Part shown: piece by piece, positions 5,746 to 56,412 of the stretch
Position numbering within the stretch: position 1 is the stretch's first letter
Layout of the letters: every line of letters starts with the position of its first letter
Assembly (NCBI GenBank): GCA_951406725.2
Contig: OX597827.1
Coordinates: 81,406,001-81,470,000, forward strand
Length of the DNA stretch: 64,000 nt
Origin: Octopus vulgaris
Lineage: Eukaryota
Reading direction: 5' to 3'
Position numbers and translations under genes: made by a program
The notes under the pieces: model-generated
Databases searched by the model: none
What the model was told of the DNA's origin: nothing
What the model saw: only the letters and a program-made list of their open reading frames with translations

Positions 5746-8169
5746 ATGGAAGTAGGCTGTGTGTGGAATACATACTTACTTGCAAATGTCCTCAATCTAT
5801 TACTACACAGTTGTGTCTGTGTAGATCTGAGCTATCATGTAGAAGAAGAAAGCAGTCCCTTTACTTTTGTTGGGGATATTGCTGCTGACACACAGATGGA
5901 AGAAACGGACTCTATTGTGGGAAATAACTTCATCACATACAACCAAATACAGAGACAAAGAACAGGAAATTCACATTTGTTTAACGTCACACAAGATGGT
6001 AAATTGTACACGGCTCAAACATTGGATGCAGAGAAACTGTGTACATACGAATCAGAGTGTGTTAGATTTATCAAAGTTGCTGTACGTAAAAGGAAGACAT
6101 TTTTGAAAATCATTAAAATTAAAGTAATTATAGAAGACATTAATGATCACAGCCCTGAGTTTCCTCAGAGTGAGATAAATCTGACATTTGGTGAGCGTGA
6201 TGGAGAAGGTGCTGAAGGATTAATTCCAGATGCCATTGACAAAGATATTGGAATGGAAAACTCTGAAATTACATATAAATTGAAGAAACAATTTAGTGAT
6301 CCATTTATATTGTCTGTGAGGAAAACTATCACTGGAGGGGCAAAGATAGGAATTATTCTTGGAGACAAACTAGACAGAGAAATACAAGATAGTTACAATC
6401 TAGAAGTGATAGCTAATGATGGAGGGCAACCTTCAAAAGAAGGAATTTTACAAGTTCATATAAAAATAATTGATGTGAATGATAACTCACCAGTTTTTTC
6501 AAAACATATTTACAATATTTCCATCAAAAATACACATCCTAACAACAACCCTATTTTGACATTGTCTGCAAAAGACCCAGATTCTGGCAATAATGGTAAA
6601 GTGTCTTATTTTATGAGTTCAAAAACACCAGAACGCACAAGACAGTATTTCAGACTGAACCAACAGACTGGGGAATTATTTGTAGAAAAACCATTAACAT
6701 CACAAACAAAGAATATTCTCAAGATGTATGTGGAGGCCAAAGATGGAGGGAATCCTTCTTTAAATTCTTTTGCCATTGTACGGGTGAATATTCTCAATGA
6801 AAAGAACCATCCTCCTGAAATTGATATAGATTTTGTGTCTGAATTGAAGAAGGGCACTGCAGCTATTTACGAAGGGACAAAAGTGGGCAGTTATCTAGCT
6901 TATGTGAATGTGGTGGACAATGATTTTGGAGCAAATGGAGAAGTGAGTTGTAAATTAGAACATGATAAAGTTGTCCTCTCACATTTAGGATCAAAGGAAT
7001 ACAAGATTACTCTGCAGAAATCCCTTGACAGAGAAACATTAGACCATTTTAACATGAGAATTGTGTGTGAAGACAATGGAAGCCCTGCTTTAAAGACGGA
7101 GAGAAAGATCTCAATCCAAGTAATGGATGTGAACGATGTGCAACCGCAATTTACCAAAGATACATTCCACTTCCTCACCTATGAGAATGGTAAAGCAAAC
7201 TTTCCTATAGGTTTTATCAATGCCACTGACCCAGACCTGGCAAGTGCTGGTCAACTGACGTTCTCACTGTTGAGTAAAGACAGAAATAACATACCGTTCC
7301 AGGTGAGTGATTATGGTTTTATTACCAGCAACATACCATTGGACAGAGAAGAAGAAGACATGTATAAGTTTGAGGTTTTTGTCAAAGACAATGGTAAACC
7401 GTCGTTGAATAACACAGCGAATGTTGTTGTTGAGGTTTTAGACAGAAACGACAATAATCCATATTTCATCTACCCTACAACTGACCCTTTCCATATCAAT
7501 GTCCACTACCGCCCGCAAAGTACCAATGCCATCACTGTGATTAGAGCGTCTGACAGAGACAGTCATTTAAATGCGTTCCTCAACTATGGAATACTTGACG
7601 GTAACAATAAACGCTTGTTTACACTCAACTCTTTAACTGGTCAAATGTCTTTCTCGCGTGCACCTCATCTCAACGATGCTGGCTCATACGAACTGGTGCT
7701 TGTGGTCAAGGATTCTGGAAGCCCAGTGTTGTCAGCCACAACTACTGTGTCTTTGTCATTAAGGGTCACTAACAAGACATCAGCACCGATGCCGACTGTC
7801 CACTTAGAGAAGAACAGAACACTGGACGTACCATTATTGATTATCCTTGTAGTAGCAGCTGTAATAGTAGCTGTGGTGATTGTAGTGTCGATCACACTGT
7901 GTATTGTGAAATGTAGCAGTGGTCAGTCTCGCTCTGCCAAGAGCACTAGGAAAGGTGTTAATAGGTCAGCTATATGTAACAGAATTGATCAACCTTTACC
8001 GTGTCAGAGCAGCAGTATTCCTGGTACCCCAGTGAGGTACTCTTCAGAGATGAATAATAGAAACATGCCATTTGTGGAATGTAAGGAAGATTTCTACCCG
8101 CAGTATGAGTCTCAGATTGATTGGTCAAACGTGGGTACCCTGGAGAAGAGTCCACCCAATACAATATTG
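5746..8169 (+). CDS. Protocadherin copy 1, main coding exon (signal peptide, EC1-EC6, TM, cytoplasmic region)
   Basis: 808 open codons from ATG 5746 (the ORF track starts at the preceding GTG). Cadherin motifs DINDHSPEF, LDRE, DVNDNSPVF, AxDxD and DRNDNNP; EC1 C-X5-C; hydrophobic TM VPLLIILVVAAVIVAVVIVVSITLCIV. Acceptor ttcAG at 5711-5712; phase-0 donor TTG|GTAAGT. Confidence 0.95.
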
Positions 8170-8829
8170 GTAAGTATGAGATTATGAAATTCTTCCTTAA
8201 TTCTCTAACAGACATATCACTCTTCAGATATCGTTTGTAATTAATGTATATCTTATATTATAATGAATGTATGTAATTAACATGTTTGGACCCCATTTGC
8301 TCTCCTATCATCTCTGTTCCATCAACTGCCATCGACATTTTCATAGCTGTGAATAAAGAATTAGGATATACAAGAGTGGGGGACATTCCAATATTTAGGG
8401 TTCCGGGCAACACCATTCCAGTTGGTGCCAGTTCAAGTAAATAGGGACTTGGTGTGTAGAGATTTCTTCTTTTGAGTTTGAGTCGTAAGAATCTTTGTAA
8501 TGTTGGTCTTTGACAGAAACACCCCCAATATACCCTGCAAAGTGGTTGCTGCTATAAAGAGTATCCAACCATACAAACTTTACAAGAACTGAGAATTCTC
8601 TGAGAGATATGGACTTTTGACCCGACTGACACTAGAGGAATCTCTTGAAAATAATTGCTTTGGTGTTTGTTGACCTGTTCAGCCCCATGACAAGATGGAA
8701 AGCAGTCATGTGAAGATGATGGTTATGATGATGATGATGGTGATGATGGCAGTGGAGGTGTTGTTAGTGGCTGTGGTAGAGCATCAATGAGATTGAGAAT
8801 GTACTCGTATTGGTCAAGAATATTGTCCA

Positions 8830-9115
8830 CCATACAACTGGTCAAGCATAATACCATTCGTATGCTGTTCAGGCTTAATTTCATGCACTGACCAGACTTA
8901 ATGGCTGTCATATTTGTCAGACGTAATGATGTCATACATTTGGTTAGACATAATATCTCCCATACATTTGGTCAGTTATAACTGGTCTGTCATACGTTAC
9001 TCAGTCACTATATCGGTCATACATTTGGTCAGAAACAATTTACGTTATACATTGACCTCACAAAATGTTTCATAAATTTTCTCAGACAATAGTGTCATAC
9101 ATTTGATCAAACATG
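8830..9115. repeat. Degenerate ~28-nt tandem repeat (gtcatacatttggtcagaca core) upstream of the terminal exon
   Basis: The core recurs several times here and at the equivalent position in copies 2-4. Confidence 0.55.
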
Positions 9116-53783: not shown

Positions 53784-53988
53784 AAGTCAATGTCAGAAGA
53801 ATGTACAAAATGCCAATTCAAATCAGTGACCATTCTTTGTATAAAATCATTCTCACCACAGACAATCTTTCCCCCAATTTGGATTCAATTTGTTTTAAAA
53901 TAAACAAAGAAACATAACATCAATAAAAATATTCTATTTTCTTCTTTAATTTCAGATAAACTCACGAGATATGATTTAACATTCTGTG

Positions 53989-56412
53989 ATGGAAGTAGGC
54001 TGTGTGTGGAATACATACTTACTTGCAAATGTCCTCAATCTATTACTACACAGTTGTGTCTGTGTAGATCTGAGCTATCATGTAGAAGAAGAAAGCAGTC
54101 CCTTTACTTTTGTTGGGGATATTGCTGCTGACACACAGATGGAAGAAACGGACTCTCTTGTGGGAAATAACTTCATCACATACAACCAAATGCAACAGCA
54201 ATGGACAGAGAATTCACATTTATTCAACGTCACACAAGATGGTAAATTGTACACGGCTCAAACATTGGATGCTGAGAAACTGTGTACATATGAATCAGAT
54301 TGTGTTAGATTTATCAAAGTTGCTGTACGTAGAAGGAAGACATTTTTGAAAGTTATTAAAATTAAAGTAATTATAGAAGACATTAACGATCACAGCCCTG
54401 AGTTTCCTCAGACACAACTGAATATTACATATGATGAAGATGATGGAGAAGGAGCCGAAAGATTAATTCCAGATGCCATTGACAAAGATGTTGGAATGGA
54501 AAATTCAGAAGTTACATACAAATTGAAGAAACAATTTAGTGATCCATTTATATTGTCTGTGAGGAAAACTATCACTGGAGGGGCAAAGATAGGAATTGTT
54601 CTTGGAGACAAACTAGACAGAGAAATACAAGATAGTTACAATCTAGAAGTGATAGCTAATGATGGAGGGCAACCTTCAAAGGAAGGAATTCTACATGTTC
54701 ATATAAAAATAATTGATGTTAATGATAACTCACCAGTTTTTTCAAAACATATTTACAATATTTCCATCAAAAATACACATCCTAACAACAACCCCATTTT
54801 GACATTGTCTGCAAAAGACCCAGATTCAGGCAATAATGGTAAAGTGTCTTATTTTATGAGTTCAAAAACACCAGAACGCACAAGACAGTATTTCAGACTG
54901 AACCAACAAACTGGGGAATTATTTGTAGAAAAACCATTAACATCACAAACAAAGAATATTCTCAAGATGTATGTGGAGGCCAAAGATGGAGGGAATCCTT
55001 CTTTAAATTCCTTTGCCATTGTACGGGTGAATATTCTCAATGAAAAGAACCATCCTCCCAAAATTGGGATAGATTTTGCATCTGAAATGAAGAAGGGCAC
55101 TGCAGCTATTTACGAAGGGACAAAAGTGGGCAGTTATCTAGCTTATGTGAATGTGGTGGACAACGATGTTGGAGCGAATGGAGAAGTGAGTTGTAAATTA
55201 GAACATGATAAAGTTGTCCTCTCACATTTAGGATCAAAGGAATACAAGATTACTCTGAAGAAACCACTTGACAGAGAAAAATTAGACCATTTTAACATGA
55301 GAATTGTGTGTGAAGACAATGGAAGCCCTGCTTTAAAGACGGAGAGAAAGATCTCAATCCAAGTAATGGATGTGAACGATGTGCAACCGCAATTTACCAA
55401 AGATACATTCCACTTCCTCACCTATGAGAATGGTAAAGCAAACTTTCCTATAGGTTTTATCAATGCCACTGACCCAGACCTGGCAAGTGCTGGTCAACTG
55501 ACGTTCTCACTGTTGAGTAAAGACAGAAATAACATACCGTTCCAGGTGAGTGATTATGGTTTTATTACCAGCAACATACCATTGGACAGAGAAGAAGAAG
55601 ACATGTATAAGTTTGAGGTTTTTGTCAAAGACAATGGTAAACCGTCGTTGAATAACACAGCGAATGTTGTTGTTGAGGTTTTAGACAGAAACGACAATAA
55701 TCCGTATTTCATCTACCCTACAACTGACCCTTTCCATATCAATGTCCACTACCACCCGCAAAGTACCAATGCCATCACTGTGATTAGAGCGTCTGACAGA
55801 GACAGTCATTTAAATGCGTTCCTCAAATATGGAATACTTGACGGTAACAATAAACGCTTGTTTACACTCAACTCTTTAACTGGTCAAATGTCTTTCTCGC
55901 GTGCACCTCATCTCAACGATGCTGGCTCATACGAACTGGTGCTTGTGGTCAAGGATTCTGGTAGCCCAGTGTTGTCAGCCACAACTACTGTGTCTTTGTC
56001 ATTAAGGGTCACTAACAAGACATCAGCACCGATGCCGACTGTCCACTTAGAGAAGAACAGAACACTGGACGTACCATTATTGATTATCCTTGTAGTAGCA
56101 GCTGTAATAGTAGCTGTGGTGATTGTAGTGTCGATCACACTGTGTATTGTGAAATGTAGCAGTGGTCAGTCTCGCTCTGCCAAGAGCACTAGGAAAGGTG
56201 TTAATAGGTCAGCTATATGTAACAGAATTGATCAACCTTTACCGTGTCAGAGCAGCAGTATTCCTGGTACCCCAGTGAGGTACTCTTCTGAGATGAATAA
56301 TAGAAACATGCCATTTGTGGAATGTAAGGAAGATTTCTACCCGCAGTATGAGTCTCAGATTGATTGGTCAAACGTGGGTACCCTGGAGAAGAGTCCACCC
56401 AATACAATATTG
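53989..56412 (+). CDS. Protocadherin copy 5 main coding exon
   Basis: 808 open codons. Acceptor 53954-53955, donor GTAAGT at 56413. The ORF extension to 56529 is intronic simple repeat. Confidence 0.95.

What the first reader, a model, noticed from the sequence alone, without database searches (positions are those of the whole stretch)
5746..56412. Combinatorial patchwork in EC1-EC4: each protocadherin copy carries a unique mix of shared variant cassettes
Seen: differences cluster in short multi-residue patches whose sharing patterns conflict. EC1: IQRQRTG (copies 1,2,3) vs MQQQWTE (4,5). EC2 first strand: SEINLTFGERDG (1), TQLNITYDEDDG (2,4,5), TDVEIIFNEEDR (3). EC3: FMSSKTPERTRQY (1,5), FFSPKTPER(I/T)RRH (2,3), YFSSETPERTRSH (4). 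EC4 start: PEIDI (1,2,3) vs PKIGI (4,5). Single sites also conflict: GG/GR (1,3,5 vs 2,4), SK/SQ (1,4,5 vs 2,3), DF/DV (1,3 vs 2,4,5). No single tree fits, and all five combinations are different. Established: vertebrate clustered Pcdhs bind homophilically through EC1-EC4, and cephalopods expanded Pcdhs independently. Inference: short-tract gene conversion shuffles specificity modules on a constant scaffold to generate a neuronal recognition code. This is the best candidate in this window for an undescribed system.
Basis: partly seen in the sequence, partly recalled or inferred. Interest (0 to 1): 0.85.

Follow-up and report, generated by a model that had tools for sequence, protein, structure and literature searches.

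The report
Paired, shuffled cassettes in octopus protocadherins
Ten near-identical octopus protocadherin genes are patchworks of short shared sequence patches, and patches in domains that pair up in vertebrate protocadherin dimers stay matched in two octopod genera, so gene conversion plus selection likely maintains a mix-and-match cell-recognition code whose binding is still untested.

Summary
The five genes are half of a ten-copy tandem array of octopus protocadherins with two divergent neighbours; copies 2 and 4 are frameshifted in this assembly, probably by error. EC5 to tail is homogenised, EC1-4 is a short-tract mosaic. The same patches occur in O. sinensis, Argonauta hians and public runs, so they are not an assembly artefact. 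Amino-acid variants fall on the side used by vertebrate trans-dimers (44/180 vs 7/146), silent ones do not, and 11 sites keep the same two states in Octopus and Argonauta. New here: cassettes are not free. EC1 R72/W72 goes with EC4 D360/G360 in 16 of 16 copies, EC2 R198/G198 with EC3 E293/K293 in 15 of 16: charge-complementary, and the antiparallel EC1:EC4 and EC2:EC3 pairings. Two other arrays repeat this. Best reading: conversion reshuffles paired lock-and-key cassettes that selection keeps matched. Binding, specificity and neuronal use are untested; uniqueness of copies is no more than shuffling gives. Conversion in protocadherin clusters is known; the paired, trans-generic cassettes were not found in my searches. 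New variant of a known kind; interest 0.75.

The parts
5746..8169 (+). Copy 1, large coding exon: signal peptide, EC1-EC6, transmembrane helix, cytoplasmic tail (808 codons, intact), followed by GTAAGT
19470..21893 (+). Copy 2, large coding exon; one extra A near 20463 and one missing A near 20761, both in A runs; the only copy with R198 plus K293
31782..34205 (+). Copy 3, large coding exon, intact; carries a private EC2 strand-A cassette (TDVEIIFNEEDR)
43557..45982 (+). Copy 4, large coding exon; extra T near 43911 (T run) and extra A near 44264
53989..56412 (+). Copy 5, large coding exon, intact; 7 differences in 467 residues from an O. sinensis copy
5947..5967 (+). EC1 C-D loop cassette, residues 68-74 (IQRQRTG or MQQQWTE); also 19671-19691, 31983-32003, 43758-43778, 54190-54210. 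Locked to the EC4 strand-A cassette
6055..6111 (+). EC1 F strand to G strand variable sites, residues 104-122; I/V122 aligns with Pcdh10 L88, named as the centre of the EC1:EC4 core
6166..6249 (+). EC2 strand A, A-B loop and strand B cassettes, residues 141-168, the most variable stretch
6319..6339 (+). EC2 D-E loop, residues 192-198, with G/R198; coupled to EC3 K/E293
6610..6648 (+). EC3 C strand and C-D loop cassette, residues 289-301 (aligns with the vertebrate Phe-X10-Phe loop)
6811..6855 (+). EC4 strand-A cassette, residues 356-370 (EID or KIG at 358-360); also 20536-20580, 32847-32891, 44624-44668, 55054-55098
7147..8169 (+). Homogenised part (EC5, EC6, stalk, TM, tail): pS 0-0.037 among ten copies, GC3 0.42-0.47 against 0.21 in EC2
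9170..9193 (+). Last coding exon of copy 1 (LPTRIKK, stop); each gene has its own: 22894-22917, 36415-36438, 48386-48409, 58583-58606
   Evidence: spliced junction in one contig of run X3
1488..3113 (+). Non-coding block found once upstream of each of the ten copies (also about 10370-12050, 23826-25979, 36723-38628, 48758-50685), with a GT donor after 1855, 10775, 24807, 37613, 49662; likely own promoter and leader exon (inferred)

Best explanation
This is a tandem array of ten near-identical octopus protocadherin genes whose first four cadherin domains are mosaics of short shared patches, likely reshuffled by gene conversion while selection likely keeps partner patches matched because they are predicted to face each other in an antiparallel homophilic dimer. 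Shown: the mosaic, the homogenised 3' half, the interface-side bias, the states shared with Argonauta, the EC1-EC4 and EC2-EC3 associations. Inferred: conversion tracts of tens to a few hundred bases move patches among the ten copies and neighbours f and g; a copy with a basic EC1 loop (RQR) keeps an acidic EC4 strand (EID), one with QQW-E keeps KIG; R198 keeps E293 and G198 keeps K293. Because the pairing is nested (EC1:EC4 outside, EC2:EC3 inside), one tract over the EC2-EC3 middle could swap the inner pair whole and leave the outer pair intact, which would explain why all four pair combinations occur in both genera. The products would be isoforms with one shared cis and signalling part and distinct trans-binding faces, most likely for neuronal self/non-self recognition (untested).
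For: Mosaic: PHI-type p=0.001, also for the eight intact copies, and p=0.002 (k=2) for silent codons only; tracts identical to f or g, e.g. copy 3 and g nt 1046-1179; exon similarity ends at the donor site for most pairs; GC3 raised in the homogenised part as reported for converted fugu Pcdh regions (PMC1852091). Side bias: 44 of 180 interface-side vs 7 of 146 opposite-side residues vary (p=4e-7), silent codons 28/180 vs 21/146 (p=0.45), Argonauta 39/180 vs 7/146; the wider family is not more variable there (entropy 1.39 vs 1.48). Retention: variable:fixed against Argonauta 44:10 on the interface side, 7:23 opposite, 8:42 in EC5-tail; all 11 two-state sites shared by the genera are interface-side; Q70/R70 differ at all three codon positions in the octopus copies. 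Coupling: of 36 pairs among nine shared sites the best long-range ones are 72-360 (10/10 and 6/6, p=0.0005) and 198-293 (9/10 and 6/6, p=0.002); all EC1:EC2, EC1:EC3, EC2:EC4 and EC3:EC4 pairs have p>=0.59. Out of sample: over three arrays 29 of 2026 EC1:EC4 or EC2:EC3 site pairs reach r2>=0.7 against 0 of 1297 others; in array C the EC1 F-G region (112-125) goes with EC4 369/372, a contact named in PMC5001838. Domain faces and contacts: PMC7082078, PMC5115871. 92% identity and five interface residues suffice for strict homophily in mouse beta6/beta8 (PMC8901172); these copies are 92.1-96.4% identical in EC1-4 with at least 8 interface-side differences.
Against: No binding or expression-pattern data exist here. 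Interface side is assigned by strand and loop from a monomer model (pLDDT 74.8; residues 71-75 under 50) and vertebrate structures about 30% identical, and I drew the element borders after seeing the variants. Named Pcdh10 contact positions are only modestly enriched (7 of 23, p=0.045, hand-mapped). 198-293 does not survive Bonferroni over 36 pairs (about 0.07). The 29 pairs collapse to a handful of cassette pairs, and in array B 1400 of 1703 pairs are EC2:EC3 anyway. With a looser filter this array also shows perfect associations outside the partner classes (143/144-431, 192-356). Side bias is weak in array B (all variable sites p=0.24, informative p=0.025). pN/pS is 0.17-0.72 in the patches. 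Copies are no more distinct than shuffling gives. Neighbour g carries one of the two states at most shared sites. The neutral simulation is not decisive when few sites are mutable.
Confidence: 0.72

Rival explanations
1. Concerted evolution without selection for diversity in the array: two old paralog types (array type and g type) leak short tracts into each other, purifying selection alone keeps g distinct, and the couplings are leftovers of two ancestral haplotypes.
For: g has one of the two states at most shared sites and 68 of 192 variable columns have their minor base in f or g; pN/pS below 1 throughout; no excess distinctness; a simulation with 35% mutable sites and three states gives 6-13 shared sites by recurrence, though it never matched the observed fixed differences.
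Against: Linkage falls to background within 30-60 nt, yet sites 860 nt apart stay matched while the sites between them are shuffled in both genera; silent variation has no side bias; opposite-side and 3' sites have turned over with none shared; 0 of 44 and 0 of 33 matched neutral replicates reach 11 shared sites; array C repeats the EC1:EC4 coupling at other positions.
Confidence: 0.13
2. The cassettes are under selection and paired, but they do not make a strict homophilic neuronal code: copies cross-bind in a few classes, tune affinity, bind heterophilically, or work outside neurons.
For: Only two clearly coupled two-state modules (four classes) are resolved in this array; several copies share both (a, b, c, 5); PMC6339937 states that nothing is known of octopus Pcdh adhesion specificity; copies could not be told apart in the laid runs.
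Against: Coupling within one gene is what self-binding predicts, not binding between different genes (inference); copies in the same class still differ at 8 or more interface-side residues; cephalopod Pcdhs are reported as enriched in nervous tissue.
Confidence: 0.11
3. The mosaics are assembly or polishing chimeras made from cross-mapped reads of fewer real paralogs.
For: Four one-base run-length indels in copies 2 and 4 show uncorrected error is likely; the 30-60 nt scale of linkage decay resembles k-mer polishing; no raw long reads were available.
Against: O. sinensis proteins match copy b (1 difference in 347), copy 2 (5 in 467) and copy 5 (7 in 467) while other copies differ by 15-36; Argonauta has its own mosaic array (PHI-type p=0.0005); both EC1 alleles and several EC3 alleles appear in contigs of public runs; chimeras would not give side bias or domain-specific coupling. 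Single sites, such as K293 in copy 2, may still be errors.
Confidence: 0.04

Closest known systems
Vertebrate clustered protocadherins (Pcdh alpha/beta/gamma; zebrafish and fugu sub-clusters)
   Same: Tandem paralogs, six EC repeats in one large exon, 3' ectodomain homogenised by conversion with raised GC3, diversity in the N-terminal repeats (PMC1852091, PMC4978886, PMC3966226); interface covariation between EC1:EC4 and EC2:EC3 (10.1101/493106).
   Different: Here each gene is complete with its own last exon, no shared constant exons; those papers treat EC1-3 or EC2-3 as largely free of conversion, whereas here EC1-4 is itself a fine mosaic; homophilic binding is proven there and untested here.
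Coleoid protocadherin arrays (PMC9068888, PMC6339937, PMC9795677)
   Same: This is one such head-to-tail sub-array from full gene duplication; conversion was already suggested from species-specific clades and very similar sequences.
   Different: In the passages read there is no domain-level mosaic analysis, interface mapping, paired cassettes or trans-generic states; dating expansions from paralog distance (8-14 Ma, PMC9795677) would understate the age of an array shared with Argonauta.
Non-clustered delta-2 protocadherins (Pcdh8.1, Pcdh10, Pcdh19)
   Same: Best sequence and fold matches (6vg1, 6vg4); same C-F-G/A-B-E-D antiparallel geometry is the template; Pcdh10 V39, L88, F124, S342, S344, V359 align with variable sites 68, 122, 158, 360, 362, 383.
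   Different: Single-copy genes with no array, about 30% identity, unrelated cytoplasmic tail.
MHC patchwork alleles and trans-species polymorphism
   Same: Short-segment conversion recombines old motifs at a recognition surface (PMC3966226); old variants outlast species splits.
   Different: There alleles of one locus and a foreign ligand; here paralogs and a predicted self-complementary surface, which forces cassettes into matched pairs.

Membership tests
Protocadherin (cadherin superfamily) | Signal peptide, 6-7 cadherin repeats with calcium-linker motifs, one TM helix, no classical prodomain | tested here: met
   Pfam Cadherin and Cadherin_2, six seven-strand domains and TM helix in the model, best solved matches are protocadherins; the EC3-4 linker reads EKNH instead of DxNDN
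Coleoid clustered Pcdh arrays | Head-to-tail full-gene duplicates on one chromosome, each with own terminal exon | tested here: met
   12 related genes in 135 kb, all + strand, last exon found for 11 of 12 (none found for f); 41 related matches, all on contig C14
Vertebrate clustered Pcdh locus | Variable exons spliced to shared constant exons (alpha, gamma) | tested here: not met
   Each of the ten copies has its own LPTRIKK exon; agrees with PMC9068888. So not a member, though it may work alike
Vertebrate clustered Pcdh locus | CTCF-bound conserved promoter element and stochastic promoter choice | tested here: inconclusive
   A conserved block precedes each gene, no match to a recalled CTCF consensus at <=2 mismatches; expression choice not testable
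Vertebrate clustered and delta Pcdh recognition mode | Antiparallel EC1-4 trans-dimer with EC1:EC4 and EC2:EC3 contacts | tested here: inconclusive
   Indirect support from side bias and domain-specific coupling; no structure or binding data
Vertebrate clustered and delta Pcdh recognition mode | Strict homophilic specificity between isoforms | not testable with these tools
   Needs SPR, AUC or cell aggregation
Concerted evolution by ectopic gene conversion | Lineage-specific homogenisation bounded by coding sequence, site incompatibility rising with distance, raised GC3 | tested here: met
   conversion and double crossover cannot be told apart from one haplotype
MHC-like balanced patchwork | Same alternative states kept across species at the recognition surface | tested here: met
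   11 two-state sites shared with Argonauta, all interface-side; protein level only, no Argonauta DNA
MHC-like balanced patchwork | dN/dS above 1 at recognition sites | tested here: not met
   pN/pS 0.17-0.72 in eight patches by pairwise counting; no site-model test was run

The most novel reading that the evidence does not exclude
Octopods run a germline combinatorial recognition code: protocadherin arrays hold a pool of ancient lock-and-key cassette pairs (outer EC1:EC4, inner EC2:EC3) older than the Octopus-Argonauta split, and because the antiparallel dimer is nested, single conversion tracts create new self-compatible, mutually exclusive isoforms, a third route to neuronal barcodes beside Dscam splicing and vertebrate promoter choice.
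Probability: 0.4. Interest if true: 0.9.

Novelty: new variant of a known kind. Interest (0 to 1): 0.75.

Why it matters
Whether the independently expanded cephalopod protocadherins bind like vertebrate ones is open: PMC6339937 says nothing is known of their adhesion specificity, and a search for cephalopod + protocadherin + cell aggregation returned two reviews only. The couplings are sequence evidence for the antiparallel EC1-4 dimer in a mollusc and name exact swap experiments (68-74 with 358-360; 198 with 293). They also show how a strictly self-binding receptor could diversify without losing self-binding, and warn that octopus Pcdh expansions dated from paralog distances may be far older than they look.

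Tried and rejected
Dimer prediction of copy 1 EC1-4: no verdict, no contacts given, not used. Selection for uniqueness: rejected, minimum distance 16 equals block-shuffled nulls. Positive selection by pN/pS: not seen. First neutral simulation was mis-scaled; the second excludes neutrality for two settings and has no matched replicate for the third. Public runs: no holder on record as RNA; all four laid runs are short contigs, so they show alleles but not long-range phase; all four show versions without copy 4's two extra bases, but other copies lack them too, so this does not prove error. No O. bimaculoides protein of the array type was found in two searches with length limits; only a g-type fragment, P0140. 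O. vulgaris proteins of cluster 1 were not counted as independent, as they may stem from the same sequence. Rfam: 0 matches. CTCF-like motif: none. Earlier scan notes: none. Noonan 2004 (PMC353213) not held; known only through PMC4978886, PMC1852091 and PMC3966226. Rows left out: array B used 13 of the 16 loci fetched (L058 partial, L059-L060 87% identical dropped); array C used the 16 fetched of 22 matches at >=94%; P0134's partial copy (881-1395) was left out of counts; Argonauta P0003 was treated as the g-type neighbour, not as an array copy.
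Full report
What is there. The window holds five protocadherin genes on the + strand; the large exons start at 5746, 19470, 31782, 43557 and 53989 and encode signal peptide, six cadherin repeats, a TM helix and tail. 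The nearest named proteins are from Octopus vulgaris, O. sinensis and Argonauta hians. In genome G000 five more close copies (a-e) lie upstream and two divergent ones (f, g) downstream. Each of the ten has its own last exon (LPTRIKK), and one contig of run X3 joins the large exon to it, so at least one member is spliced. A conserved non-coding block with a splice donor precedes each of the ten, likely promoter and leader exon (inferred). Eight of ten frames are intact; copies 2 and 4 have two one-base run-length indels each. The O. sinensis counterpart of copy 2 is annotated through both places, so error is likely but not proven.

The observation. All quoted patches and sites are present as described. 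Among ten copies 164 of 192 variable columns fall in EC1-4 and cluster. Silent diversity is 0.09-0.19 in EC1-4, 0 in EC5, 0.03-0.04 beyond. Incompatibility between sites rises from 0.11 within 10 nt to 0.69 at 31-60 nt and stays there; the permutation test gives p=0.001 for ten copies and for the eight intact ones, and for silent codons alone p=0.002, 0.025 and 0.41 at k=2, 5, 10. Sequence similarity stops at the exon's donor site for most pairs. This is concerted evolution with short tracts. That all copies differ is no more than shuffling gives.

Is it real? O. sinensis carries the same cassettes; three combinations are nearly unchanged (copy b 1 difference in 347 residues, copy 2 five and copy 5 seven in 467), while the copy lying where copy 4 lies has a different mix, 22 of its 23 differences being states found in other copies. 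Argonauta has its own six-copy array plus a g-like neighbour, homogenised in EC5-tail and mosaic in EC1-4 (p=0.0005). Contigs of public runs show both EC1 alleles. Chimerism cannot be the main cause; single sites may be wrong.

Where the variants lie. Vertebrate dimers use the C-F-G face of EC1 and EC3 against the A-B-E-D face of EC4 and EC2 (PMC7082078). On strand assignments from a monomer model, 44 of 180 interface-side and 7 of 146 opposite-side residues vary; silent codons show no bias (28/180, 21/146); Argonauta repeats it (39/180, 7/146). The borders were drawn after I had seen the data, and side is not contact; 7 of 23 hand-mapped Pcdh10 contact positions vary (p=0.045). The wider family is not more variable on that side. 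26 of Argonauta's 50 variable positions also vary here (7.5 expected; 10.3 after matching for domain and family entropy, p=5e-5). Eleven sites keep the same two residues in both genera, all interface-side, while the opposite side and 3' part hold 23 and 42 fixed differences and no shared site. pN/pS stays below 1: old variants retained, not a new burst. The split is bracketed only indirectly, between about 46 Ma (Argonauta-Tremoctopus) and 101 Ma (cirrate-incirrate) in PMC7104719 (inference). Neutral simulations matched to the data gave at most 4 and 8 shared sites (44 and 33 replicates); a setting with few mutable sites gave 6-13 but never matched.

The new point: cassettes are paired. The EC1 C-D cassette and the EC4 strand-A cassette, 860 nt apart, are matched in 10 of 10 copies here, 6 of 6 in Argonauta and 3 of 3 in O. 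sinensis: RQR goes with EID, QQW-E with KIG. EC2 R198 goes with EC3 E293 and G198 with K293 in 9 of 10, 6 of 6 and 4 of 4; the exception is frameshifted copy 2, whose O. sinensis counterpart is matched. Of 36 pairs tested these are the two best long-range ones (p=0.0005, 0.002; about 0.02 and 0.07 after Bonferroni); pairs of non-partner domains have p>=0.59. Both pairs are charge-complementary, and all four combinations of the two pairs occur in both genera. In two further arrays of G000 (13 and 16 copies) the same mosaic and 3' homogenisation appear; side bias is strong in C and weak in B. Over the three arrays 29 of 2026 partner-domain site pairs reach r2>=0.7 against 0 of 1297 others; these reduce to a few cassette pairs, B is dominated by EC2:EC3 pairs anyway, and a looser filter shows two unexplained perfect associations in this array (143/144-431, 192-356). 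In C the EC1 F-G region goes with the EC4 loop after strand A, a contact named in PMC5001838.

Mechanism (0.72). Conversion moves tracts among copies; the 3' half drifts to uniformity; interface-side variants are kept, and a copy stays self-compatible only if partner cassettes match. The nested order would let one tract replace the inner EC2-EC3 pair and leave the outer pair whole. Function as a neuronal recognition code rests on analogy: mouse beta6/beta8 discriminate with five interface differences at 92% identity (PMC8901172), and these copies are 92.1-96.4% identical in EC1-4. Rivals: leak from neighbour g without selection for diversity (0.13), paired but non-strict or non-neuronal adhesion (0.11), chimeras (0.04).

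Against what is known. Regional conversion in vertebrate Pcdh clusters is established, with EC2-3 described as largely spared (PMC4978886, PMC1852091, PMC3966226); conversion in coleoid arrays was suggested (PMC9068888, PMC6339937); interface covariation is known in vertebrates (10.1101/493106). The locus is a coleoid array, not a vertebrate-type cluster (no constant exons). Nine searches listed no paper whose title or abstract describes domain-level mosaics, paired cassettes or binding in cephalopod Pcdhs; the library lacks most subscription papers (Noonan 2004 not held; Albertin 2015 and Wang and Ragsdale 2017 not read) and no supplements were opened, where such an analysis could sit. What I saw: passages of PMC9068888, PMC4978886, PMC5115871, PMC1852091, PMC9795677, PMC3966226, PMC7104719 and 10.1101/2025.05.16.652989; passages plus one section of PMC7082078 and PMC5106212; abstract and first third of Results of PMC8901172; parts 1-2 of 5 of PMC6339937 and PMC5001838; part 1 of 4 of 10.1101/493106. 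The CTCF consensus and the Dscam comparison beyond PMC6339937 are recalled.

Verdict. New variant of a known kind; interest 0.75, because it makes the binding mode and code of cephalopod protocadherins testable with named swaps.

Noticed in passing
window 1488-3113, about 10370-12050, 23826-25979, 36723-38628, 48758-50685 (and five upstream copies in G000:C14): A 1.4-2 kb non-coding block, 87-98% alike, once upstream of each of the ten genes while most introns do not align; holds a GT donor, and splicing to the acceptor 31 nt before the ATG would give a short upstream ORF. Likely homogenised promoter and leader exon.
   Followed up: partly
window 20463, 20761, 43911, 44264: Four one-base run-length indels break copies 2 and 4; likely sequencing errors, not proven. 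Similar indels occur in f and in several copies of arrays B and C.
   Followed up: partly
L045-L057 (G000:C14 80.10-80.21 Mb) and L061-L076 (80.41-80.66 Mb): Two more Pcdh sub-arrays with the same 3' homogenisation; B varies almost only in EC2-3 (EC5 invariant in 13 copies), C has its own EC1:EC4 and EC2:EC3 couplings.
   Followed up: partly
L012 and L011 (genes f and g, window-relative about 64.4 kb and 92 kb): Divergent in signal peptide, EC1 and residues 301-327 but nearly identical to the array elsewhere; f carries W72/K358 and g R72/E358/D360, so even these follow the pairing. A g-type gene is present in O. sinensis, O. bimaculoides and Argonauta.
   Followed up: partly
window 6799-6810 (residues 352-355 of copy 1, all copies): The EC3-EC4 linker reads LNEKNH instead of the canonical DxNDN calcium motif, which may loosen that joint.
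   Followed up: no
window 32202-32240: Copy 3's EC2 cassette TDVEIIFNEEDR is found in none of the other eleven related genes (17 private bases in this copy); its donor is unknown.
   Followed up: no
window 57452-58067: A 232-bp unit repeated 2.7 times, strongly purine-skewed, in the intron before copy 5's last exon.
   Followed up: no
window 12600-18700, 26000-30500, 51200-51800: Short dispersed repeats in both orientations between genes, probably mobile-element remnants, with a 66-bp tandem at 15387-15617.
   Followed up: no
P0134 (O. sinensis, 4660 aa) and P0121: Public gene models that fuse several array copies into one giant protein; probably annotation errors.
   Followed up: no
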